From the NCBI GenBank assembly GCA_049296775.1, contig JBAQTB010000003.1:270068-334067 (forward strand): a stretch of 64,000 nt of DNA, read 5' to 3'. Every line of letters begins with the position of its first letter. Position 1 is the stretch's first letter. This document shows, one piece after another, positions 20,469 to 59,906 of the stretch. Position numbers and translations under genes: made by a program. The notes beneath the pieces are model-generated. The model ran no database searches, was not told where the DNA came from, and saw nothing but the letters and a program-made list of their open reading frames with translations. The stretch is from Patescibacteria group bacterium (GTDB lineage Bacteria; Patescibacteriota; Patescibacteriia; UBA9934).

Positions 20469-20480
20469 AAGGTCAGACAA

Positions 20481-20507
20481 AAAACCGTCCTGATGGGACG
20501 GTTTTTT
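20481..20507. terminator. Bidirectional rho-independent terminator
   Basis: AAAACCGTCC-TGATG-GGACGGTTTTTT; serves rpmB (+) and the giant gene (-). Confidence 0.6.
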
Positions 20508-23500
20508 AGTTGCTGACCAAGGGGTCTGTGCCATTTTCGACCTCCTGTGAATCAATGAAGCCATCATTATCTGTGTCATTCAAATCTGGATTAGTCTCGT
20601 AGAGCAACTCCTCATCGTCAGTCAGACCATCACGATCCTGATCGTTTCTAGTTAAGCCAAAACGTGTAAAGAAGTCCCGAATCTTCAGAGGCACAGTCAC
20701 CACGAAGGCCTCGCCAAACCAATAATGACGGAACATGGTAGGTGGCACAGTCAGAATAAAGTCTTGCCAATTATCGCCTAAGATAAATCTAGCATCCTCC
20801 TCATTTGAAATGTGGTGCAGGATATTTGGCGCCTCAGATGTATATACTTCTGGCTGACTCTCGATCTGAACTAAGATAACTCCGGTCTGAGGCAAAATTG
20901 GCTCACCCATGGGATAGAGCGATAAGGTTTCATCTGGCACAACCACTAGGCTATCCATATTGGTAAACCAGGTGTAGAAAATCTCTTCATTCCAGAACGG
21001 ACGGCGTAAACCGTCTTCCAGCCAGTACACAGTGGGTAACCCTTCACCCTTAAAGACATCCCCGTTCGCCACTGGACCGGGCGGCGTAGTCTCTCCAGTG
21101 TCTTCATCATCAGTCGTGTCATCGTCAGCACTCGGCGCACAAACGCCAAGATCTACAATCACGGGCACGGTTGGATGACGATTATTCGTTGTCGAAACTA
21201 AGAGCACATACACGGTCTGTAGTCCCTCAGTAGCCGGGATATGCCACGGAATTAACATCGCTTCAATGCCCGCCTCATCGGCCAAACTAGCATCTGGCTC
21301 AAAGTCATACATCTCAGACTCAATAAACTCTGCATCATTAGCTATAAACACCCTCACCGCTCCCCTGGCTTGAATAAAGAGATCGACATTGGCGCCATCA
21401 GTACACGAATTAGTCAGCTGTCTAGCCTCCACGATCACGCCCGTCACAAATGAAGGTGATACTCCCCCTGAACCTGAGCTGTCATTATCCAAAACTTCGA
21501 CCTCAACATCAGCAATCACGAAACCATCGTAAACACCATCAAAGGAGGCGGCGGTGTGAGAAATCGTAACCGTCATTGGACTGGTTTCATCCTGAGAATC
21601 ATCCAGGGCTGTCACGGTGACAGCTTGAGGCGTATCCCAATTAGCATTAGTAAACGTAAAGACCTCAGCACTCACCTCAATTTCAGTAGCATCGTAAGTT
21701 AACGAAATCGCCACGTCAGAGGTTGGTTCACTGGTTAAAACTAAAGTGTAATCATCAGAAGTCGCTCCAAGCTCATCCACGCTGGTTGCGCCGCCAGATT
21801 CAACCACAGTAATCCCAGCTGTGTCATTATCGGTGTTAGTGACGTCAACATCAGCTGGATTTAAACCGTTATAAATCAGATCGTTAGAAACGGCTGCACC
21901 TAAAATAATCATGTACGCCACATCGCCGTCATCCAAATCATCATCCGCACCTGTAACTGTGACGGTTTGCGGAGTGCTGTAATCGCCTACGGTGAAGGTC
22001 AGAGTACCTCCACTCGTCACCGCGCCTTCACTGTCGTCATTGGTCGCCACGGCGATAGTGACGGTGTCACTAGGCTCAGTCTCTAAAACTACGGTGAAAG
22101 TGGCCGTGCCACCGGCTTCAGTGGTATTACCAGAAATCGCCGAGACCGTAATACTAGAAGTATCGTTATCAGTGACGTCAACGTCCAAAGCATCAAAGAC
22201 TAAACCGTCGTAGGTAAGGTCAGAGGATGAAAACTCGAAAGTCACCACCCCGACATGTGGGTCTGTTTCATCCAGATCATCATCAACAGCTGTGACCGTG
22301 ACTTCTTGCGGCGTATCCCAATTTTCAGTGGTAAAAGTCAATTGTGCAGTTGAGCCAGTAATATCCGCATCAAAAGCCAGGTCAACCGTGACATTATTAG
22401 ACGGCTCAGAGGTCAAGACCAATGTAAACGTATCCGAAGTTTCAGATGCCTCAGCCACTGCCGTATTCCCACCAGACTCGACCAAACTAGCACCCAATGC
22501 ATCATTGTCAGTATTCGTGACCGACACATCGTTCGGGTTAATCGCATCGTACGCTGCATCTGCAGTACTCGCGTCATCGGTTGAGGTCTGAATGGAATAA
22601 GCGATATCGCCATCATCCACGTCGTCATTAACACCGGTCACAGTCACGGTTTGTGGAGTGCTCCAATTCAGCGTGGTGAAAGTACGAGTCGCTCCGGAAG
22701 TAACCGTACCCTCCGTACTATCCGACGAAGCCGAGTCTACCCGCACGTCACCAAGCGGCTCAGACGTTAACACGACCGTAAACGTAGCCGTACCCCCGGC
22801 TTCCGTGGTATTGCCAGAAATAACTGAGACAGTCACGCCCGCGGTGTCGTCATCTGTGTTAGTGACTGACACGTCACTTGGATCATAAGCATCATAGCCC
22901 GCATCGAGAGTGCCGGTATCGTTAGTAGACACATCGATAGTATAAACAACATCACCATCATCAACATCATCATTCACGCCGGTCACAGTCACGGTTTGTG
23001 GGGTGTCCCAGTTATCCGTCGTGAAGGTCAAGGACGAACCGTTCGTAACCGTACCTTCCGTAGCATCATTAGTGGCAGAGTCGATGACGACATCATCTAA
23101 AGGTGCAAAATCCAAAACCACTGTATAAGTCGCCGTACCCCCGGCCTCTGTAGTATTGCCAGAAATAGCGGAAACGGTCACACCAATATCTGAAAACCAA
23201 CCATCAGTATTACTACCTTCCTCGGAATTGGCTGGGTTAAGCGGCACCGTCACCGCAGAAGAGTTGTCGATGGCGGTATTGTCTGAAACGGTCAAATAGT
23301 CACCGGTAAAGGTGGAGGCACCAGTAAAATCAAAGGCGGCCTCGCTACCGTCCATGGTAGCGATAATGATGATCTTATCGCTACTATCAAGACCGTTTAA
23401 TAGCAAAGAGCTACCGATAGTCTGTATCGATCCAGAAGCCAGAGTCAAAGTATTACTGGCGGCATCGTTACTCGTCTGTTCATAAATAAAGTCATACCAA

Positions 23501-26448
23501 GTAGTATCACCAGTCAAACTATGATCTGCATCAGCATCAAAAGTGACCGTTCCAGCCTGTGCTGCAAACGTGCCGGCATTAGTCCAGTCTCCCCCAATGG
23601 TCAAAGCGTAATCCTGGCCAGACACCATATTCAAAGTACCGGACGTCAACGTCAAATCAGCATTAACATCTAAAGCAGTAGCTGGTTGAAAAGTGTCAGT
23701 CGCACCGTCAGTGCTATTAATCACGAGGTTAGAGTAGGTATCCTTCAATGTAGTCAAAGTATAAGTATCTATAGCAGTATCGCCGTCTCCTACATACGTC
23801 ACTATAGAGCCGGAGTTGAGAGTTGGATAAGTTGCATTCAAAGTAATCGTTTCTGCGCCTTGAAGCTGAAAATTACCTCCATCTTCAACGATAAACGTAC
23901 CGCTCAGTCCGTTCACCGTTAACGCTTGTCCGCTTAAGTAAAATTTGCCTTCCTCAATAATCAAATCCTGGTTATCTTCATCGACCACAAGAGCTGACAG
24001 CAAATTCACCTGCCCCCCATCTTTGTTAACATATATATCTGCGGTAAATTTATCTGTGGCGCCGGTTAGATCAAAAGACTGGGTAGCCGAACCGCTGAAT
24101 CTCAACGGCACAGTGCTACCATCAAAACCAGCTTGAACGGTCACGTTAGCCTGAGGCTCGATACTGCCTGTAATAGTCGACAGCGTGCCGTTGGTTAAAA
24201 TTAAATTACCAGTCAACGTTAAAATGTCTCCTTCACCAATAGAGGTTCCAGAGATTCTGTTGATGGTTAATTGATTAAAAGTCTGCGTACCATTGAAATT
24301 CCAAGTTCCGCTAGTGACCGTGGCTGTAATCAGCGTAGGCGCAATAAAAGTACCTCCGGTTATGTCGAAATCTCCACTCACATTCCAGGCACTTTGGGCA
24401 CTGGCGTCATAAGAGCCCGCCGCCTGCATCCAATCATCAACTGTGAGCGTAAAATCACTGGGATTATTCAAGGGAATTGCCCCAGAAAAATCAGATGTAG
24501 CCTCAATGGCGTTCAGAGTCGCAGCTGCTCCAATGTCAATATCATCATTTGCATCCGCCGCACTATTCAGACGAATTCTCGGAGCAATACCCCCAGTAAT
24601 AGTGTAGGTTTGTGCCACGGAATCATCACCAAAATCAATATAGGCCGTACCCCCATCAAAACCTGCGCCCTGAGAAATATTAGCTCTGGCATCTACCTGC
24701 GAAGTACTCCCGGTGATTGAGCCGTTAGTTAGGGTCAATAAACCCGTAACCACAAAAGTATCGCCCGCGATCATTGAAACGGAACTAGCACGATTAATTG
24801 TTAATTGATTAAAAGTTAAACTCGTAACCACATTCCAAGAGCCACTCGTACCAGTAGCAGTTACCAAAACTGGGGGCACAAAGGTGTCCACCGACAAAGT
24901 CAGATCACCACTCAAGTTCCAAGCACTTTGGGCACTGGCGTCATAAGTACCGACGGCCTGCGTCCAGGCATCGATAACTAGAGTAAAATCGCTCGGGTTA
25001 TTTAAGGGGATAGCCCCAGAGAAACCCGCATTAGTTTGAATAGCGTTCAAAATGGCCGCCGCTTCAATATTAATGTCATCACTAGCGTCAGCGGCACTAT
25101 CCAAACGAATTCTAGGCGCAGTACCACCGCTCACGGTATACGTCTGCACCAAGCTATCGTTACCAAAATCAATATACCCGTTACCACCGTCAAAACCAGC
25201 GCCCTGGTTGACATCCCCTTGGACGATGATCTCACCAGTCGATCCAGATATTGAGCCGTTAGTCAAAGTCAACGTACCGTCGACCGCTAAAGTGTCATTC
25301 GTTCCAAAAACTAAGGAGCTCGTACGATTAATCGTGAAATCTGCAAAGGTCTGGCTGGTATTGACATCATACGTACCCGTCGTTCCGGAAGCTGTCACCA
25401 AGGCAGGAGCCGTCAATGTACCACCAGATATGGTCAATGATACGATATTCCAAGCAGTTTGCGCGCTGGCGTCATACGTACCAGCCGCCTGCGACCACAA
25501 GGTAAAAGTTGGCACAAAATCACCAGCGTTGCTGAATGGAATAGTTCCAGAAAAACCGGAGGTAACAGTTAAGCTCGTAAATGTGGTGGCGGCGCTATGT
25601 AGAACGGTGTCGCTAGCATCCGCAGCGCTATCTAAACGAATGTTAGGAGCGATACCTCCAGCAGCGGTATAGGTCTGACCCACACCGTCATTACCAAAAT
25701 CAATGATCGCCGAACCACCATCAAAGCCAGACGTTTGGCTAATATCCCCATTAGCCGTAATCGTTCCCGTATTTACCACACCGTTTGTCAGCGTCAGCGT
25801 GCCATCTACCACCAACGTATCTCCTGACGTAATCGTCATCGTGGAAGTACGATTGATAATTAAGTTATTAAAAGTTTCTGTCACGCTCACGTTCCACGTG
25901 GCGGTGGAGCCATCCGCAGTCACCGTACCAGTAGACGGAGCAAAACTTCCTGAACTAACCGTAAAGGCCCCCGCCACTGCCATATTGCCGCTAGTCGACG
26001 TAAACGTTCCGCCCGAAACCGTAAACGCATCATTAAAATCTAAAGCGCCATCACTCCCAGTAAACGTACCGGCGGAAATATCAAAGTCAGACGTGCCAAC
26101 AGTCAGCGTTGCGGCCGCCGCCTGCGTAACCACGCCGGAGTAGCCCGTGTTAATGTCTACGCCACCCACACTGATTGCACCATCAAGAGTGGCAGCCTTG
26201 GTGCTAGTACCGTCAAACGTAGCTATGTCACCAACACCTGGCTCTACATTACTACTCCAGTTAGCATCACACGACCATTTATTGCCGTCACCCACTCCAC
26301 CGCCACATGTACCATCTGCGCCACCGCCGTCCCAAGTAATGACCGCCGCCTGAACTGAACTAGAACTTAACGCAAAAACAACCAAAAGACTGGCAAGACT
26401 AACGCATATGACGCTACTCATCCTCAAAAACCAATAGACACGCTTCAT
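20506..26448 (-). CDS. Giant secreted surface/adhesin-like protein (1980 aa)
   Basis: N-terminal signal peptide; four ~145-aa beta-helix-like tandem repeats; about five Calx-beta/cadherin-like repeats (VTVTGVNDDVDDGD); acidic linker; conserved C-terminal domain also found in the 50512 gene; terminal DxDxDG thrombospondin-type-3-like Ca-binding repeats. Confidence 0.8.
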   Translation of the reverse strand: MKRVYWFLRMSSVICVSLASLLVVFALSSSSVQAAVITWDGGGADGTCGGGVGDGNKWSCDANWSSNVEPGVGDIATFDGTSTKAATLDGAISVGGVDINTGYSGVVTQAAAATLTVGTSDFDISAGTFTGSDGALDFNDAFTVSGGTFTSTSGNMAVAGAFTVSSGSFAPSTGTVTADGSTATWNVSVTETFNNLIINRTSTMTITSGDTLVVDGTLTLTNGVVNTGTITANGDISQTSGFDGGSAIIDFGNDGVGQTYTAAGGIAPNIRLDSAADASDTVLHSAATTFTSLTVTSGFSGTIPFSNAGDFVPTFTLWSQAAGTYDASAQTAWNIVSLTISGGTLTAPALVTASGTTGTYDVNTSQTFADFTINRTSSLVFGTNDTLAVDGTLTLTNGSISGSTGEIIVQGDVNQGAGFDGGNGYIDFGNDSLVQTYTVSGGTAPRIRLDSAADASDDINIEAAAILNAIQTNAGFSGAIPLNNPSDFTLVIDAWTQAVGTYDASAQSAWNLSGDLTLSVDTFVPPVLVTATGTSGSWNVVTSLTFNQLTINRASSVSMIAGDTFVVTGLLTLTNGSITGSTSQVDARANISQGAGFDGGTAYIDFGDDSVAQTYTITGGIAPRIRLNSAADANDDIDIGAAATLNAIEATSDFSGAIPLNNPSDFTLTVDDWMQAAGSYDASAQSAWNVSGDFDITGGTFIAPTLITATVTSGTWNFNGTQTFNQLTINRISGTSIGEGDILTLTGNLILTNGTLSTITGSIEPQANVTVQAGFDGSTVPLRFSGSATQSFDLTGATDKFTADIYVNKDGGQVNLLSALVVDEDNQDLIIEEGKFYLSGQALTVNGLSGTFIVEDGGNFQLQGAETITLNATYPTLNSGSIVTYVGDGDTAIDTYTLTTLKDTYSNLVINSTDGATDTFQPATALDVNADLTLTSGTLNMVSGQDYALTIGGDWTNAGTFAAQAGTVTFDADADHSLTGDTTWYDFIYEQTSNDAASNTLTLASGSIQTIGSSLLLNGLDSSDKIIIIATMDGSEAAFDFTGASTFTGDYLTVSDNTAIDNSSAVTVPLNPANSEEGSNTDGWFSDIGVTVSAISGNTTEAGGTATYTVVLDFAPLDDVVIDSATNDATEGTVTNGSSLTFTTDNWDTPQTVTVTGVNDDVDDGDVVYTIDVSTNDTGTLDAGYDAYDPSDVSVTNTDDDTAGVTVSVISGNTTEAGGTATFTVVLTSEPLGDVRVDSASSDSTEGTVTSGATRTFTTLNWSTPQTVTVTGVNDDVDDGDIAYSIQTSTDDASTADAAYDAINPNDVSVTNTDNDALGASLVESGGNTAVAEASETSDTFTLVLTSEPSNNVTVDLAFDADITGSTAQLTFTTENWDTPQEVTVTAVDDDLDETDPHVGVVTFEFSSSDLTYDGLVFDALDVDVTDNDTSSITVSAISGNTTEAGGTATFTVVLETEPSDTVTIAVATNDDSEGAVTSGGTLTFTVGDYSTPQTVTVTGADDDLDDGDVAYMIILGAAVSNDLIYNGLNPADVDVTNTDNDTAGITVVESGGATSVDELGATSDDYTLVLTSEPTSDVAISLTYDATEIEVSAEVFTFTNANWDTPQAVTVTALDDSQDETSPMTVTISHTAASFDGVYDGFVIADVEVEVLDNDSSGSGGVSPSFVTGVIVEARQLTNSCTDGANVDLFIQARGAVRVFIANDAEFIESEMYDFEPDASLADEAGIEAMLIPWHIPATEGLQTVYVLLVSTTNNRHPTVPVIVDLGVCAPSADDDTTDDEDTGETTPPGPVANGDVFKGEGLPTVYWLEDGLRRPFWNEEIFYTWFTNMDSLVVVPDETLSLYPMGEPILPQTGVILVQIESQPEVYTSEAPNILHHISNEEDARFILGDNWQDFILTVPPTMFRHYWFGEAFVVTVPLKIRDFFTRFGLTRNDQDRDGLTDDEELLYETNPDLNDTDNDGFIDSQEVENGTDPLVSN
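24080..25810. repeat. Tandem ~435-bp coding repeats (x4) inside the giant adhesin gene (approximate bounds)
   Basis: Protein-level repeats ..GFDGG..YIDFG.D...QTYT..GG.APRIRL.SAADA.DDI.I..AA.LNAI....FSGAIPLNNPSDFTL..D.W.QA.G.YDASAQSAWN.. recur four times. Confidence 0.55.
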
Positions 26449-26460
26449 AAGCGTGTCTAT
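26434..26460. promoter_or_regulatory. Perfect 12-bp inverted repeat with the giant gene start codon as its 3-nt loop
   Basis: ATAGACACGCTT-CAT-AAGCGTGTCTAT; CAT 26446-26448 is the ATG of the minus-strand gene. Confidence 0.5.
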
Positions 26461-26480
26461 TTTACCATAGATTAAAGGTA

Positions 26481-26508
26481 AGATTTTAGATCTTAGACTT
26501 TAGATTTT
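26481..26508. repeat. Four tandem heptamers AGATTTT AGATCTT AGACTTT AGATTTT just upstream of the giant gene start
   Basis: Exact 7-nt periodicity; shares AGACTTTAG core with the sites at 41691 and 50405. Confidence 0.55.
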
Positions 26509-26510
26509 GG

Positions 26511-27734
26511 CTAGCTATCCACCAAAGTTGCTAATAGCTCCCTACCCTTCTCTTCCCACTCAGTTAAACTATAAAACTGCTTCTCAAGTACGTAGTCGGT
26601 AACTACCTGAACAGCCTTGTCATGATCTACGTCACGCAGCTCTCTTAAATACTTCTCCATGAACCTAAAGTGCAGTTCTTCACGCGCATCATCATTCTCA
26701 ATTTGGCGCCACAACTGCTCAGCGTAAACATGGGCCACAGTCTCGTTAGCCGCCAAGGACTCGCGCATGTAGGCCTCTAACTCAATCTGCAATTCATCAA
26801 CACTCTTGTATGACAAATCCTCAGGCGATAACCGACCCTCCAGACTAGCGAGCAACGCCGCTACCTGCACTTCAGCGTTATCTGTGTCCAAATGATAATC
26901 CCGGGTCTCGTAATACGGTTTCATGGTTAAGGTGATGTCCTGCGGATGATCGGCGATCTCAGCGGCACGATAGGCGGTGTACAGAGCCTGAGCAGTTTTG
27001 AAATCCAAATCAGTATCGACTAACGAATATAAAATATGTAACAAGGTCGTCGACATCCCATCTCCGCCCAACAATTTCAAGGCCATGTCCTTCATGAAGA
27101 CCGCTTGATTCTGACTCCGTTGTGGATCGCCAATGGCGTAACTCTGGCGATGACGTAACCACTGCAGCGTCTCAGTCGTAGGCAACTGCAACACACGGAA
27201 GATCCCTAAGGCTTGAGAAAACCCGACGGTCGCGACATAGTCCGCTTTCACCCCGACGATTTTTTCAATTTGCGTAACCCCGTAATCTAAACCGCCAAAG
27301 GCACAAGCATTAGACACGTAATAATCTGTTTCCAAATACTCTCGTCCTGGTGGCAAGGGCGTGTAAGTGCCACGCGGCACGGACGTAATCAGCATGCTCC
27401 AATCTTCCAAATCCAAAGTGATCATGTGGATAGCATCGCAATGACGCTCTAGTCCTTCTTTCCTAGAGTCCAGCCCGAGAGTCAGAATATTGATCTGGGA
27501 GTTGGTCCCAAATGGAATACCGGTATCAGCCTCAATCTCCGCCTGACGCGCCTCAACCGCCGCCTCAACCGCATCCCAGGCTGGCGGCGCAGCTGCCTCT
27601 AAAGAAGTATTCGGAGCAGCTTTAACAAACAAAAGTCCGCCGGCCACCACACCGCCGGCCACGGTAGAGAGTAAGAAAATCGGGAGCAACCAAGCCTTCA
27701 TAGCACTGAGCATTACAGAAACAACTATCTTCAC
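26511..27734 (-). CDS. LytR-CpsA-Psr (LCP) family cell-envelope phosphotransferase
   Basis: N-terminal TM anchor; LCP core NILTLGLDSR...HCDAIHMITLD. Confidence 0.7.
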   Translation of the reverse strand: MKIVVSVMLSAMKAWLLPIFLLSTVAGGVVAGGLLFVKAAPNTSLEAAAPPAWDAVEAAVEARQAEIEADTGIPFGTNSQINILTLGLDSRKEGLERHCDAIHMITLDLEDWSMLITSVPRGTYTPLPPGREYLETDYYVSNACAFGGLDYGVTQIEKIVGVKADYVATVGFSQALGIFRVLQLPTTETLQWLRHRQSYAIGDPQRSQNQAVFMKDMALKLLGGDGMSTTLLHILYSLVDTDLDFKTAQALYTAYRAAEIADHPQDITLTMKPYYETRDYHLDTDNAEVQVAALLASLEGRLSPEDLSYKSVDELQIELEAYMRESLAANETVAHVYAEQLWRQIENDDAREELHFRFMEKYLRELRDVDHDKAVQVVTDYVLEKQFYSLTEWEEKGRELLATLVDS

Positions 27735-30990: not shown

Positions 30991-31062
30991 TACGCAACCA
31001 CCGGCTTGCAACTTTCAAGTCATTAAGTCTAAGATAGAGCAAATCTTAATCTGTATAAATCT

Positions 31063-33313: not shown

Positions 33314-33388
33314 AGGGGAATAGTGAAATGGCTATCACAAAGGTCTCCAAAACCTTTATTCAGGGTTCGAATCCCTGTTCCCCTGCCA
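33314..33388 (+). tRNA. tRNA-Trp (anticodon CCA)
   Basis: Hand-folded: acceptor AGGGGAA/TTCCCCT, D-stem GTGA/TCAC, anticodon stem AAGGT/ACCTT with loop CTCCAAA, T-arm CAGGG-TTCGAAT-CCCTG, discriminator G, encoded CCA. Confidence 0.85.
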
Positions 33389-33440
33389 GGCAACTGCCGC
33401 GGTGTCTAGATTTTCACCCGACACCGCGGCAACTGCCTGG
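33386..33440 (+). terminator. Perfect 21-bp hairpin starting in the CCA of tRNA-Trp
   Basis: CCAGGCAACTGCCGCGGTGTC-(13 nt loop)-GACACCGCGGCAACTGCCTGG. Confidence 0.55.
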
Positions 33441-33475
33441 CATGCCACCAACCTTTGCGGTAAAATGAGACAGAT

Positions 33476-33775
33476 ATGTTTCCTGTCTCATTTTATGTTT
33501 ACGTCTGCGTAAGTCTAAAAGATAATAGGCTTTATACGGGCTCGACAAATAACCTCGAGAAAAGATTAGCCGAACATGCTAATGGACTGGTCACATCGAC
33601 CAAGCCGCGCTTGCCTTTGAAGCTCATTTATTATGAAACGTACTCGAACGAGACAGATGCAAGAATGAGAGAGAAGTATTTGAAGGGCGGAGGAAGGGCA
33701 AGAAGGAATTTTCGCTTGCAGCTATCTGAGACTTTGAAGGATTTCGATATAGCCAAGGAACGGAACAAAATATGA
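33476..33775 (+). CDS. Stand-alone GIY-YIG nuclease family protein (COG2827-like)
   Basis: YVYVCVSLKDNRLYTGSTNNLEKRLAEH is the canonical small GIY-YIG signature; 99 aa; AT-rich. Confidence 0.75.
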   Translation: MFPVSFYVYVCVSLKDNRLYTGSTNNLEKRLAEHANGLVTSTKPRLPLKLIYYETYSNETDARMREKYLKGGGRARRNFRLQLSETLKDFDIAKERNKI

Positions 33776-37126: not shown

Positions 37127-37171
37127 TTGACATCCCCTTCCCTGCATGATTAACTTAAGATAATCTTAAGT
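37127..37171 (+). promoter_or_regulatory. Promoter TTGACA-17-TTAACT overlapping a 19-nt perfect palindrome ACTTAAGATAATCTTAAGT (putative TA operator)
   Basis: Palindrome at 37153-37171 sits between the -10 and the antitoxin start codon. Confidence 0.45.
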
Positions 37172-37177
37172 TAATCT

Positions 37178-37399
37178 ATGAAAAATCTGATCACCTTAAA
37201 GGAATTTAGGCAGGACGTGGCGAAATACGCCGAACGAGTAGCTAAAGGCGAGTCCTTAATCATCACCAAACGATCTCGGCCGCTATTTCGAGTCGGCCCG
37301 GTAGAAGAGGAAGGCTGGGAAACACTCATAGATTTCACAAAATTCCGCAAGGGTGGCATCCCGGCGAGCGAGATTCTCAAGATTCTGAAATCAGTTTAG
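37178..37399 (+). CDS. Type II antitoxin, Phd/YefM-like
   Basis: 73 aa; N-terminus LITLKEFRQDVAKYAERVAKGESLIITKRSRP matches the Phd/YefM consensus; 2 nt before the toxin gene. Confidence 0.65.
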   Translation: MKNLITLKEFRQDVAKYAERVAKGESLIITKRSRPLFRVGPVEEEGWETLIDFTKFRKGGIPASEILKILKSV

Positions 37400-37401
37400 G
37401 T

Positions 37402-37650
37402 ATGGTTGATCGCATTCGTAAAATCTTGCGACAATTACTACCCAAAGACTTGAAGCGGTTACAAGAAGTCGTTCAAAAAGTTCACGACAACGATGTGATT
37501 GGTCTCGATGTAAAAAAACTTGAAGGACGAGATGATGTCTATCGTGTCAGAAAGGGAGACTTCAGAATTATCTTTCAACGTGTTCCGGGTAAGGAAAACT
37601 TGATTATCGCTATCGAGCGTCGTTCAGATACAACATACAACGAGCTCTAA
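37402..37650 (+). CDS. Type II toxin, RelE/ParE family
   Basis: 82 aa; VYRVRKGDFRIIFQRVPGKENLIIAIERR matches the RelE/ParE core (YRiRvGdYRiiy...i.HRkd.Y). Confidence 0.7.
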   Translation: MVDRIRKILRQLLPKDLKRLQEVVQKVHDNDVIGLDVKKLEGRDDVYRVRKGDFRIIFQRVPGKENLIIAIERRSDTTYNEL

Positions 37651-40408: not shown

Positions 40409-40462
40409 ATGTACGAGCCATGAGTGAATTCATCGTGTACCGTCCGGCCTAGTACACAACCA

Positions 40463-40495
40463 CAAAACCATCAGCCCAAACGGCTGGTGGTTTTG
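40463..40495 (+). terminator. Hairpin family member (CAAAACCATCAGCC-CAAAC-GGCTGGTGGTTTTG)
   Basis: Nearly identical to the 37701 copy. Confidence 0.55.
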
Positions 40496-40538
40496 TTTTC
40501 ATGATACAATCTTTGCAATAAATCATCTAAGTTACCCC

Positions 40539-41690: not shown

Positions 41691-41724
41691 GGATTTTAGA
41701 ATATAGACTTTAGTTGAAAGTATC
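41691..41724. repeat. Tandem heptamers GGATTTT AGAATAT AGACTTT AGTTGAA AGTATCA in the divergent intergenic region
   Basis: Shares AGACTTTAG with the repeats at 26481 and 50405. Confidence 0.45.
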
Positions 41725-44991: not shown

Positions 44992-45028
44992 AAAACCCCT
45001 TCTGTAATTTCAGAGGGGGTTTTGAGAT
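44992..45028 (+). terminator. Rho-independent terminator (AAAACCCCTTCTG-TAATTTCA-GAGGGGGTTTT)
   Basis: Loop sequence resembles the hairpin at 39020. Confidence 0.55.
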
Positions 45029-50387: not shown

Positions 50388-50404
50388 CGTGATACGGGAA
50401 GAAA

Positions 50405-50432
50405 TTAGAATTTAGAGTTTAGACTTTAGAAA
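50405..50432. repeat. Tandem heptamers AGAATTT AGAGTTT AGACTTT AGAAACT upstream of the 50512 gene
   Basis: Exact 7-nt periodicity; same family as 26481 and 41691. Confidence 0.55.
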
Positions 50433-52174: not shown

Positions 52175-52388
52175 GCTTACTTTATGGTAGGCTGGTTCTT
52201 TATGACTAGTCGCCAAATCATCATCTTAGGCAGTCTCATTGGCTCCACGTTAACCGTGCTCTTTTTGATGGCGTATATTTTGATTTGGATTGCTAGAGGC
52301 TAAACAACTGAGCACAGGCCACTCTTCACTAATTGCCACAGCTACGTTAAAATAGACAAGTTGTAAGTCAATTAAGCCTGAAATTGTT

Positions 52389-52868
52389 ATGAGTAAAAAA
52401 GCCTTCGCGAGTTTAGCTTTAATTCTATTAGCTGGTGCTGGTTGCTCGAGTACAGCGACCGTGACACCGGAAGTACCGATCACCATAGAAGATAGCATTT
52501 TAGACACAGAACCGGTCATTGAAATTATTACCGATCACGAAGACCCCACCACACCTCCCAACTCAGACAATGCCGATGACGCAGAAGGCGCCGTAAAAGA
52601 ATTTACCATTACCGGCGGCAATTTTGCCTTCACTCCAGATGTCATGACTGTAAAGAAAGGTGACACTGTACGAATTACTTTCAAGAATGATGACGGCTTT
52701 CATGATTTAGTCATCGATGAATTTGCAGTTGCTACCAAACAAATCCAAGCTGGCGCCAGTGAAGTCGTGGAGTTTGTAGCTGACAAGGCTGGAACTTTTG
52801 AATACTACTGCTCAGTTGGTAAGCACCGCGAAATGGGCATGAAGGGCGTCCTCACTGTAACAGAATAA
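52389..52868 (+). CDS. Cupredoxin-like (type-1 blue copper) lipoprotein
   Basis: Lipobox LLAGAGCSS; copper-ligand pattern FHDL...YYCSVGKHREMGM (His, Cys, His, Met). Confidence 0.7.
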   Translation: MSKKAFASLALILLAGAGCSSTATVTPEVPITIEDSILDTEPVIEIITDHEDPTTPPNSDNADDAEGAVKEFTITGGNFAFTPDVMTVKKGDTVRITFKNDDGFHDLVIDEFAVATKQIQAGASEVVEFVADKAGTFEYYCSVGKHREMGMKGVLTVTE

Positions 52869-59255: not shown

Positions 59256-59849
59256 CTCTGCGATTACAATAAACCGCTGTAAAGCCGTACCAAGCGGATA
59301 AGAGGCCTGTAAGCTCAAGATCTTACGTTCGTAATTATACTGATCCAAAACGCTCAAGTCTCTTGGGCTCACGATTTTAGTTTCAAAAACAGTATACGTA
59401 AACACCTGACCCTCCGCATTGCTAACCTTGATTTGACTACCTAAAGCAATTTCTGGCAAACGAGCAAAAACGGTCTTGTAATTACCGGGTGTCCACACGT
59501 AATCACTAGAATGTCCAAAAATATACACGTTGCCCAACTCCCCTGGTTCTGGCGTTTGCGGGAATCTGACTACGCCGTCACGTAGCGCCAACTGATAAGC
59601 CGCTTCTGACTCTTCTTCCGTGTATTTAATTGGTGCCTCAATGCCTAAACTGGGGATTTGGAGCGTGTCTGGTGCCATGACCTCTGATGTCTGTTCGAGC
59701 GTCGCTTCTGGCTCTGGCAAGGGCTGAATCGGACTTAAACGCGCCTTAGCGTACGGATAAGCCAATACCAGAATCAGTCCCGCGAATACCATGGTCGCGA
59801 TCAGAGAAGCCTTAGCCTGAAACATATAGCTAGCAGAAAACCCCGCCAT
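59235..59849 (-). CDS. Sortase homologue with catalytic Cys replaced by Ser
   Basis: N-terminal TM anchor, conserved His (IFGHSS) and Arg (RFIV), but LSLQASYP where sortases have TLxTC. Confidence 0.6.
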   Translation of the reverse strand: MAGFSASYMFQAKASLIATMVFAGLILVLAYPYAKARLSPIQPLPEPEATLEQTSEVMAPDTLQIPSLGIEAPIKYTEEESEAAYQLALRDGVVRFPQTPEPGELGNVYIFGHSSDYVWTPGNYKTVFARLPEIALGSQIKVSNAEGQVFTYTVFETKIVSPRDLSVLDQYNYERKILSLQASYPLGTALQRFIVIAELDESQN

Positions 59850-59906
59850 CTCACCTGATCAATCAGGAAAAAGAGCGGGGTTTTGGATTAAACTCGTGAC
59901 TTAAGC

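What the first reader, a model, noticed from the sequence alone, without database searches (positions are those of the whole stretch)
26434..26460. Start codon of the 1980-aa adhesin gene lies in the 3-nt loop of a perfect 12-bp hairpin
ATAGACACGCTT-CAT-AAGCGTGTCTAT is a perfect 12/12 inverted repeat, and its loop is the ATG (minus strand) of the giant surface-protein gene.
- The first codons (MKRV) are encoded by one arm.
- A 12-bp perfect palindrome is far beyond chance in 64 kb.
- In the mRNA it would bury the AUG in a triloop, suggesting translational control.
- At the DNA level it is an ideal dimeric-repressor operator overlapping the translation start.
- Either reading implies tight or conditional control of a very costly surface protein.
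Basis: seen in the sequence. Interest (0 to 1): 0.5.

Follow-up and report, generated by a model that had tools for sequence, protein, structure and literature searches.

The report
Terminator hairpin straddling a gene start
The perfect hairpin around the giant surface-protein gene's start codon is real and conserved, but it is most likely the transcription terminator of the upstream gene, squeezed onto the next gene's promoter and start in a very compact genome, rather than a dedicated switch for the big protein.

Summary
The palindrome exists and is slightly longer than reported: 13+13 bp, 26433-26461, with the loop being the ATG of ORF 20506..26448(-). It is not chance. Five orthologous loci keep a hairpin at the same place with different stem sequences: 92% of cells pair, 4 pairs show changes on both sides, and 10 G.U cells pair only on the sense strand. 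This points to a selected sense-strand RNA structure, not a conserved DNA operator.

Context argues against control of the gene's own mRNA. An invariant extended -10 box (TGnTAAAAT) overlaps the left arm, 9-10 nt before the start codon, and there is no Shine-Dalgarno sequence. The gene's own transcript therefore probably begins inside the left arm and cannot form the hairpin.

The hairpin lies 49 nt after the stop of the upstream LCP gene. It is followed by GGUUUUUG and is the only terminator candidate there. In three orthologs it scores as a canonical intrinsic terminator. Relatives lacking it carry a separate terminator after LCP. Two other junctions in the window also put a terminator hairpin over the next gene's start.

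Best reading: an overlapping terminator and leaderless promoter. No transcript ends were mapped. Confidence about 0.6; interest is modest.

The parts
26433..26461 (-). Hairpin: 13-bp perfect arms (26449-26461 is the 5' arm on the - strand, 26433-26445 the 3' arm). The loop 26446-26448 is the ATG of the giant gene.
   Evidence: RNA fold -18.0 kcal/mol, z = -4.7. Conserved with compensatory changes in 5 orthologs. Flagged terminator-like.
26422..26432 (-). U-rich tail of the hairpin (GGUUUUUGAGG; U run 26426-26430). It is encoded by codons 6-9 (W F L R) of the giant gene.
   Evidence: It is weaker than the U-tracts of the window's canonical terminators (nT 2.8 versus 4-4.8). The orthologs L073, L074 and L080 have UUUUUCUUUUC.
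26459..26467 (-). Extended -10 promoter element TGGTAAAAT. Its last three bases (AAT) are the first three of the hairpin's 5' arm. Ten nt separate it from the ATG.
   Evidence: TGnTAAAATA is invariant in 6 aligned orthologs. The same type of element lies 6-13 nt before the start in orthologs that have no hairpin. Nine of 62 genes in the window have such an element 5-13 nt upstream, against 0.5 expected.
20506..26448 (-). Gene for a 1980-aa secreted repeat protein (signal peptide MKRVYWFLRMSSVICVSLASLLVVFALSSSSVQA|AV). There is no Shine-Dalgarno sequence upstream.
   Evidence: Pfam finds only TSP3_bac at the C-terminus.
26511..27713 (-). Upstream co-directional LCP (LytR-CpsA-Psr) family gene. 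Its stop codon is 49 nt before the hairpin.
   Evidence: No other hairpin lies between its stop and the giant gene.
20479..20507 (-). Canonical terminator of the giant gene (AAAAAACCGUCC-CAUCA-GGACGGUUUUUU). It is shared head-to-head with rpmB on the + strand.
26479..26506 (-). Four tandem heptads TCTAA(A/G)N / TCTTACC between the LCP stop and the -10 box. Function unknown. Not conserved in orthologs.

Best explanation
The palindrome encodes a sense-strand RNA hairpin that acts as the Rho-independent (intrinsic) terminator, or at least the 3'-end hairpin, of the upstream LCP transcription unit. It is physically superimposed on the promoter and start of the giant gene.

Reading 5'->3' on the - strand:
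- The extended -10 box TGGTAAAAT supplies the A-rich 5' flank and the first 3 nt of the left arm.
- The rest of the left arm is the discriminator and initial transcribed region.
- The start codon is the loop.
- Codons 2-5 (K R V Y) are the right arm.
- Codons 5-8 (UAU UGG UUU UUG) give the U-rich tail.

RNA polymerase arriving from LCP transcribes both arms and terminates. Any read-through RNA also has its SD-less AUG locked in a -18 kcal/mol stem. RNA polymerase starting at the gene's own promoter begins about 7 nt after the -10 box, that is inside the left arm and 0-4 nt before the AUG. That leaderless or near-leaderless mRNA cannot form the hairpin, so it escapes both termination and occlusion.

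Shown here: the structure, its conservation with covariation, its strand specificity, the invariant -10 box, the position after LCP, and canonical terminator features in orthologs.

Inferred: the transcription start site, actual termination, and leaderless translation.
For: 1. Structure is selected as RNA on the sense strand.
- Six orthologous junctions (window, L002, L018, L073, L074, L080) keep a 13-pair helix with the start codon in the loop.
- 92.3% of cells pair, 4 pairs change on both sides, and there are 14 extra pair types. No shuffle out of 500 reaches the observed score. Slid controls give 32-59% pairing.
- RNAalifold finds the same helix independently.
- Ten G.U cells would be mismatches on the antisense strand or in duplex-DNA symmetry. 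Antisense terminator scores are poor.

2. Terminator features.
- The hairpin lies 49 nt after the LCP stop, is followed by GGTTTTTG, and is flagged by the terminator scan.
- It is the only hairpin in that intergenic region.
- With my Carafa-type score, the window's canonical terminators give +14 to +40. The start hairpins of L073 and L074 give +24.7 and +16.7. The window's gives -9.3, in the top 1.3% of random 80-nt windows.

3. Mostly complementary distribution.
- L003 has a separate hairpin plus T7 tract right after the LCP stop and no start hairpin.
- L075 and L076 lack the giant gene and have a terminator directly after LCP.
- In L081 the homologous hairpin follows TGTTAGAAT, but the start codon lies 12 nt downstream of it. 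The loop position of the start codon is therefore not the conserved requirement.

4. The gene has its own promoter.
- TGnTAAAATA is invariant.
- Extended -10 boxes sit 6-13 nt before the start in orthologs without a hairpin: L004, L005, L017, L041, L045.
- The window has 9 of 62 genes of this class against 0.5 expected.
- No SD precedes the ATG.
- An ATG or GTG at an mRNA 5' end is sufficient for translation in mycobacteria (PMC4633059).

5. The same architecture recurs in the window.
- Hairpin 33461-33495(+) lies after tRNA-Trp, with the ATG of the GIY-YIG gene in its loop and TAAAAT in its left arm.
- Hairpin 59837-59884(-) lies after the 1315-aa gene, with the sortase ATG in its stem.
- Elsewhere, terminators abut the next -10 box within 5-6 nt (40462-40496 then 40502; 44992-45023 then 45030).
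Against: - The window's U-tract is interrupted (UAUUGGUUUUUG). Its score (-9.3) is well below the canonical terminators of the same window.
- L002 has no U-tract and L018 only a weak one (scores -50 and -37), yet both keep the stem through compensatory changes. The stem may therefore have a function beyond classical termination.
- L004, L078 and L005 have neither a separate terminator nor a strong start hairpin, so the complementary distribution is imperfect.
- The 9-10 nt between the -10 box and the start codon is longer than the 6-7 nt expected for a strictly leaderless mRNA. A 2-4 nt leader is implied, and its translatability in this phylum is unknown.
- No transcript 5' or 3' ends were available.
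- The terminator score formula was written from memory and is only a relative yardstick.
Confidence: 0.6

Rival explanations
1. One reading: a cis-regulatory hairpin in the giant gene's own 5' region. Transcription would start upstream of the left arm, for example from the second TAAAAT at about 26476-26481 on the - strand. The hairpin plus U-tail would then act as a promoter-proximal attenuator and/or bury the AUG. Expression of the giant protein would need antitermination, a helicase, heat or some other trigger.
For: - The AUG or GUG sits in the loop in six orthologs and the stem is kept by covariation.
- L002 and L018 keep the stem without a good U-tract. That fits occlusion better than termination.
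- The window has a second TAAAAT about 30 nt upstream of the ATG.
Against: - The upstream TAAAAT is not conserved in L002, L018, L073 or L074. The -10 box that overlaps the left arm is invariant.
- Orthologs without a hairpin have the same promoter-proximal start.
- A perfect 13-bp stem of -18 kcal/mol with no mismatches is not the metastable type seen in RNA thermometers (established knowledge of ROSE and fourU elements).
- In L081 the homologous hairpin does not contain the start codon.
- No Rfam family matches.
Confidence: 0.15
2. A hairpin on LCP read-through RNA that does not terminate transcription. It would serve as a 3'-end stabiliser or processing site for the LCP mRNA, or as a pure translational insulator that keeps read-through RNA from being translated into the giant protein.
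For: - The stem is conserved in L002 and L018, where the U-tract is poor.
- The pairing is sense-strand specific.
- The hairpin lies after the LCP stop.
Against: - L073, L074 and L080 have textbook U-tracts encoded by unusual n-region codons (Y F S F = UAU UUU UCU UUU). This argues for selection on the U-run itself.
- Relatives that lack the hairpin put a canonical terminator after LCP.
Confidence: 0.15
3. One reading: a palindromic operator for a dimeric repressor, covering -10 to +17 of the giant gene's promoter.
For: - The palindrome is perfect over 13 bp and centred on the promoter-proximal start, which is a classical operator position.
- The window does contain one palindrome that looks like a true operator: 37148-37176, in front of a Phd/YefM-ParE pair.
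Against: - The core half-site sequence differs among orthologs (GACACG / TGTGTG / CGAGGG / CAGGTG). Only complementarity is kept, and 10 cells are G.U, which means asymmetric DNA.
- There is no second copy in the window or in the fetched loci.
- No regulator gene is adjacent. The neighbours are HU, LCP, Germane and HtrA.
Confidence: 0.05

Closest known systems
Rho-independent (intrinsic) terminators of the A-tract/stem/U-tract type
   Same: It is a stable stem-loop on the sense RNA, shortly after a stop codon, followed by a U-rich run. An A-rich 5' flank can pair with the U-run. The three orthologs scored (L073, L074) or read by eye (L080) match the window's canonical terminators.
   Different: It lies on top of the next gene's -10 box, start codon and first eight codons. 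The stem is less GC-rich (5 G-C pairs of 13). The U-run is interrupted by GG in the window and is nearly absent in L002.
Leaderless genes of Actinobacteria and Deinococcus (a -10 box a few nt upstream of an ATG or GTG that is also the transcript 5' end; PMC4633059)
   Same: A -10 box lies 6-12 nt before the start codon, there is no SD, and ATG or GTG starts are used. The class makes up about 15% of genes in the window.
   Different: Here the gap is 9-10 nt rather than 6-7, so a 2-4 nt leader is possible. No transcription start data exist for this organism. My four literature searches that included 'leaderless' found no statement about leaderless genes in Patescibacteria. A fifth search on TSS mapping in Nanosynbacter lyticus added none.
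Start-codon or SD-sequestering 5'-UTR hairpins (RNA thermometers such as ROSE and fourU; translational operators)
   Same: The start codon is enclosed by a hairpin.
   Different: Those elements lie within the gene's own leader and are metastable, with mismatches and weak pairs. This stem is perfect at -18 kcal/mol, and its 5' arm overlaps the gene's own -10 box.
Transcription attenuators (promoter-proximal terminators such as the trp, pyr and bgl leaders)
   Same: A terminator-like hairpin lies at the very 5' end of a gene.
   Different: No alternative antiterminator structure, leader peptide or binding motif was found. The promoter geometry predicts that the transcript lacks the 5' arm.

Membership tests
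Intrinsic (Rho-independent) terminator | Stable stem-loop in the sense-strand RNA | tested here: met
   13-bp perfect stem, -18.0 kcal/mol, z = -4.7. Conserved with covariation in 6 loci.
Intrinsic (Rho-independent) terminator | U-rich tract immediately 3' of the stem | tested here: inconclusive
   Window: UAUU(in stem)-GG-UUUUU-G. The scan flags it, but my Carafa-type score of -9.3 is below the window's canonical +14 to +40. L073 and L074 score +24.7 and +16.7; L018 and L002 are poor.
Intrinsic (Rho-independent) terminator | Located shortly downstream of the stop of a co-directional gene that has no other terminator | tested here: met
   The hairpin starts 49 nt after the LCP stop, with no other hairpin in between. 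Relatives without it have a separate terminator after LCP: L003, L075, L076.
Intrinsic (Rho-independent) terminator | Transcript 3' ends map to the U-tract | not testable with these tools
   No transcriptome data are accessible.
Leaderless or near-leaderless mRNA | -10 promoter element a few nt upstream of the start codon, conserved | tested here: met
   TGGTAAAAT ends 10 nt before the ATG. TGnTAAAATA is invariant in 6 orthologs. The element is 6-13 nt upstream in hairpin-less orthologs. Genome-level enrichment is 9 of 62 genes against 0.5 expected.
Leaderless or near-leaderless mRNA | No Shine-Dalgarno sequence | tested here: met
   The upstream 20 nt (GGUAAAAUAGACACGCUU) has no purine-rich anti-SD complement. 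Other genes in the window do carry GGAGG-type sites.
Leaderless or near-leaderless mRNA | Transcription start site at or within about 5 nt of the start codon | not testable with these tools
   Needs dRNA-seq or 5'-RACE.
5'-UTR translational hairpin / RNA thermometer | Both arms lie inside the gene's own transcript | not testable with these tools
   Indirect evidence is against it: the only conserved -10 box overlaps the 5' arm.
5'-UTR translational hairpin / RNA thermometer | Metastable stem (mismatches, weak pairs) that can open under physiological change | tested here: not met
   The window's stem is 13 bp perfect at -18 kcal/mol.
Palindromic transcription-factor operator | Half-site sequence conserved among orthologous promoters | tested here: not met
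   The core of the arms differs in every lineage while pairing is kept. Ten G.U cells break DNA symmetry.
Palindromic transcription-factor operator | Further copies in the genome (a regulon) | tested here: inconclusive
   None in the 64-kb window with up to 3 mismatches, and none in 78 other loci. The rest of the genome could not be scanned.
Any curated Rfam RNA family | Covariance-model match | tested here: not met
   The only hits in the window are two tRNAs. Nothing meaningful appears at 26300-26620 even at E <= 10.

The most novel reading that the evidence does not exclude
A roughly 45-bp promoter-terminator fusion works as a self-insulating junction. It stops and translationally silences transcripts arriving from the upstream gene. 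The same DNA fires a leaderless mRNA that is immune because it starts inside the hairpin's 5' arm. This design has been maintained by compensatory evolution across a clade of Uhrbacteria-like Patescibacteria. It is reused at at least three junctions in 64 kb, which would make it a general compaction strategy of CPR genomes and would imply widespread leaderless expression in this phylum.
Probability: 0.45. Interest if true: 0.45.

Novelty: new variant of a known kind. Interest (0 to 1): 0.33.

Why it matters
If correct, it shows how an ultra-small, uncultured (CPR/Patescibacteria) genome packs three signals into about 45 bp: a terminator, a promoter and a coding start. A leaderless start lets the downstream mRNA ignore a terminator that is lethal to read-through transcripts.

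The practical lesson for genome annotation is that a striking palindrome over a start codon need not be a regulatory switch. Terminator predictors that exclude coding sequence will miss such sites.

It also gives sequence-level evidence, still without transcription start mapping, that leaderless-type promoters are common in this phylum. It does not support special conditional control of the large surface protein.

Tried and rejected
- Regulon search. No other copy of the palindrome or its half-site was found in the window or in the fetched loci.
- Rfam at gathering threshold and at E <= 10 gave nothing at the site.
- A protein search with the giant protein's N-terminus returned only distant paralogs or orthologs (at most 60% identity). 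It added no new junctions.
- Alternative start at codon 10 (MSSVICV...). Rejected because it gives no charged n-region, orthologs align from M1, and GAGG abuts that ATG with zero spacing.
- A scan of 427 kb of fetched Patescibacteria loci for hairpins of at least 9 bp enclosing a first start codon found only a handful. The architecture is recurrent in this genome but not ubiquitous.
- Literature searches for leaderless genes in Patescibacteria/CPR and for terminator/promoter overlap gave no directly relevant report. One paper (PMC12641261) notes unusually variable -10-to-TSS distance in the one CPR species with mapped start sites.
- The shared 11-mer TAAAATAGACA (26454-26465 and 52347-52358) is not significant by the shuffle test.
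- My simple per-gene terminator scan under-calls terminators whose U-run is paired with the A-tract. It was used only qualitatively.
Full report
**1. Observation**

On the - strand the region reads ...ctaTGgTAAAATAGACACGCTT-ATG-AAGCGTGTCTATTggtttttgaggATGagt....

- The inverted repeat is perfect over 13 bp: arms 26433-26445 and 26449-26461, with a 3-nt loop.
- The loop is the ATG of the 1980-aa ORF 20506..26448(-).
- An independent gene call on a Logan contig uses the same start.
- No shuffle reproduces the palindrome.
- The sense RNA folds at -18.0 kcal/mol, z = -4.7.
- M1 is the likely true start. Orthologs align from residue 1 (MKRVYWFL / MKHAYPNL / MNNAYPRL), and only M1 gives a charged signal-peptide n-region.

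It must be read against its background. The window has 12 separate perfect hairpins of at least 9 bp. Many gene 3' ends carry A-tract/stem/U-tract terminators.

**2. Organism and neighbourhood**

The LCP-family gene upstream (26511..27713, -) has its best relatives in MAGs labelled Patescibacteria or Candidatus Uhrbacteria. An identical protein is annotated in an NCBI Patescibacteria MAG. The local gene order is HtrA, Germane, HU, LCP, giant gene, and then rpmB on the opposite strand. HU has its own terminator. The giant gene ends in a textbook terminator at 20479-20507.

**3. The hairpin is a conserved sense-strand RNA structure**

Orthologous LCP-to-giant-gene junctions were recovered from genome and metagenome collections and through LCP homologs. 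Five of them (L002, L018, L073, L074, L080) keep a hairpin in the same register, with the ATG or GTG start codon in the loop. The stem cores differ:

| Locus | Left core / right core |
|---|---|
| window | GACACGC / GCGTGTC |
| L002 | TGTGTGC / GCACGCG |
| L018 | CGAGGGC / GTCTTTG |
| L073 | CAGGTGC / GCATCTG |
| L074 | TAGGTGC / GCACTTA |
| L080 | TAGGTGC / GCATTTG |

On the six-sequence alignment:

- 92.3% of cells pair.
- 4 pairs change on both sides, and there are 14 extra pair types.
- No shuffle out of 500 reaches the observed covariation score or pairing percentage.
- Sliding the 3' partner by 1-3 columns drops pairing to 32-59%.
- RNAalifold predicts the same helix on its own.
- Ten cells are G.U. 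These pair only in RNA of the sense strand, and the antisense versions fold and score much worse.

This rules out chance. It also argues against a DNA operator, because the sequence is not conserved and only the pairing is.

**4. The gene's own promoter overlaps the left arm**

TGnTAAAATA is invariant in all six loci. It is an extended -10 element whose last three bases start the left arm, 9-10 nt before the start codon.

Orthologs that have no start hairpin still have an extended -10 box 6-11 nt before their start codon:

| Locus | Element | Gap to start |
|---|---|---|
| L004 | TGcTAGAAT | 9 nt (GTG) |
| L005 | TGaTAAAAT | 6 nt (GTG) |
| L017 | TGaTATAAT | 11 nt |
| L041 | TGgTAGAAT | 9 nt |
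| L045 | TGgTATACT | 8 nt |

In the window, 9 of 62 genes have such an element 5-13 nt upstream, against 0.5 expected and a maximum of 3 in 500 random trials. The gaps fall into two groups, 6-17 nt and 26-48 nt.

No SD precedes the giant gene's ATG, although other genes in the window have one.

By established promoter geometry, transcription starts about 7 nt after the -10 hexamer. That places the start inside the left arm, leaving a 0-4 nt leader. At most a 4-bp remnant of the stem could then form. An ATG or GTG at the 5' end suffices for translation in mycobacteria (PMC4633059). The one CPR species with mapped start sites shows unusually variable -10-to-TSS distances (PMC12641261). The start-site position is inferred here, not shown.

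**5. Terminator evidence**

- The hairpin starts 49 nt after the LCP stop and is followed by GGTTTTTG.
- It is the only candidate terminator for LCP, and the consensus scan flags it.
- I used a d'Aubenton-Carafa-type score, written from memory and used only as a relative yardstick.

| Site | Score |
|---|---|
| Canonical terminators in the window | +14 to +40 |
| Start hairpin of L073 | +24.7 |
| Start hairpin of L074 | +16.7 |
| Window hairpin | -9.3 (top 1.3% of random windows) |
| L018 | -37 |
| L002 | -50 |

The L073 and L074 hairpins have 14-bp stems followed by UUUUUCUUUUC.

In L073, L074 and L080 the U-run is encoded by the odd n-region codons Y-F-S-F. In the window it is encoded by Y-W-F-L. 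This suggests selection on the RNA rather than on the peptide.

Relatives resolve the same need differently:

- L003 has a separate hairpin plus T7 tract immediately after the LCP stop, and no start hairpin.
- L075 and L076 lack the giant gene altogether and have a terminator right after LCP, facing rpmB.
- L081 has the homologous hairpin after TGTTAGAAT, but the start codon lies 12 nt downstream of it.

So 'start codon in the loop' is not the conserved requirement. 'A hairpin after LCP, abutting the A-rich -10 box' is.

**6. Recurrence in the same window**

- Hairpin 33461-33495(+) is TAAAATGAGACAG-atATGtttc-CTGTCTCATTTTA. It follows tRNA-Trp (33314-33388). The only possible start of the GIY-YIG gene lies in its loop, and TAAAAT lies in its left arm.
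- Hairpin 59837-59884(-), at -29.5 kcal/mol, follows the stop of the 1315-aa gene. The called ATG of the sortase gene lies in its stem.
- Elsewhere, terminators abut the next extended -10 box within 5-6 nt (40462-40496 then 40502; 44992-45023 then 45030, with the ATG 6 nt further on).

The giant-gene junction is the overlapping end of a continuum of tight packing.

**7. Interpretation**

Best explanation (about 0.6): the hairpin is the intrinsic terminator of the LCP unit, fused with a leaderless-type promoter and start.

- Read-through RNA is terminated, and its AUG is occluded.
- Promoter-initiated RNA lacks the 5' arm and is unaffected.

Weak points:

- The window's U-run is interrupted.
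- L002 and L018 keep the stem with poor U-tracts.
- L004 and L005 have neither element.
- The 9-10 nt gap implies a short leader.
- No transcript ends were mapped.

Rivals:

| Rival | Confidence |
|---|---|
| Own-mRNA attenuator or translational occlusion | 0.15 |
| Non-terminating 3'-stabiliser or insulator hairpin | 0.15 |
| DNA operator | 0.05 |

**8. Comparison and novelty**

Each ingredient is a known kind: an intrinsic terminator and a leaderless promoter. The variant feature is the complete superposition:

- the -10 box serves as the A-flank;
- the start codon is the loop;
- signal-peptide codons supply the 3' arm and the U-run.

This arrangement is maintained by compensatory evolution in a CPR clade. 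I found no description of it in the searchable literature, which is a limited search. It does not indicate special conditional control of the surface protein. Interest is modest (0.33).

Noticed in passing
window 33461-33495 (+): A 13-bp perfect hairpin, TAAAATGAGACAG / CTGTCTCATTTTA, with a 9-nt loop. The loop contains the only possible ATG (33476) of a 99-aa GIY-YIG gene. The hairpin lies 72 nt after tRNA-Trp, and TAAAAT is 9 nt before the ATG. This is the same architecture as the finding.
   Followed up: partly
window 59837-59884 (-): A strong hairpin (-29.5 kcal/mol, AAAACCCCGC...GCGGGGUUUU) after the stop of the 1315-aa DUF642-like gene. Its 3' arm encodes codons 2-4 of the sortase gene (ATG at 59849, as also called on the Logan contig). 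AGGTGAG lies just before that ATG.
   Followed up: partly
window 37148-37176 (+): An AT-rich perfect 14-bp palindrome, GATTAACTTAAGAT-A-ATCTTAAGTTAATC, ending 1 nt before the ATG of a Phd/YefM-like antitoxin gene (37178-37399). A ParE-like toxin gene follows (37402-37650). It has no U-tail and follows a separate terminator. It looks like a classical toxin-antitoxin operator and makes a useful contrast to the finding.
   Followed up: partly
window 26479-26506 (-); also 31026-31048 (+), 50404-50432 (-), 41695-41709 (-): Tandem 7-nt repeats TCTAA(A/G)N lie upstream of the giant gene's -10 box. The composite TCTAAGAT-N(3-5)-AAATCTTA also occurs upstream of the Band_7 gene: 2 matches against 0.01 expected. 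It is not conserved in orthologs. It may be a protein-binding array or an UP-like element.
   Followed up: partly
window 33384-33442 (+): A 23-bp hairpin (91% complementary) whose 5' arm starts inside the 3' end (CCA) of tRNA-Trp. It has no U-tract. Its function is unknown. Possibilities are a processing signal, an integration-site remnant or a repeat element.
   Followed up: no
window, genome-wide feature (for example 11245, 45030, 56406 on +; 56395, 32377, 20138 on -): About 15% of genes (9 of 62) have an extended -10 box 5-13 nt before the start codon and no SD. Other genes have the -10 box 26-48 nt upstream. This suggests a large leaderless class in this Patescibacteria genome.
   Followed up: partly
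L075, L076 versus window 20506-26448; also L002, L004, L073, L074: The giant gene is a variable insert between LCP and rpmB. It is absent in some close relatives (LCP about 75-78% identical). Where present, it ranges from about 1013 to 2519 aa.
   Followed up: no
window 52347-52358 (+) versus 26454-26465 (-): The 11-mer TAAAATAGACA (-10 box plus the following bases) is shared with the region about 40 nt upstream of gene 52389-52868. It is not significant by the shuffle test, so it may be coincidence or a preferred promoter/discriminator word.
   Followed up: partly
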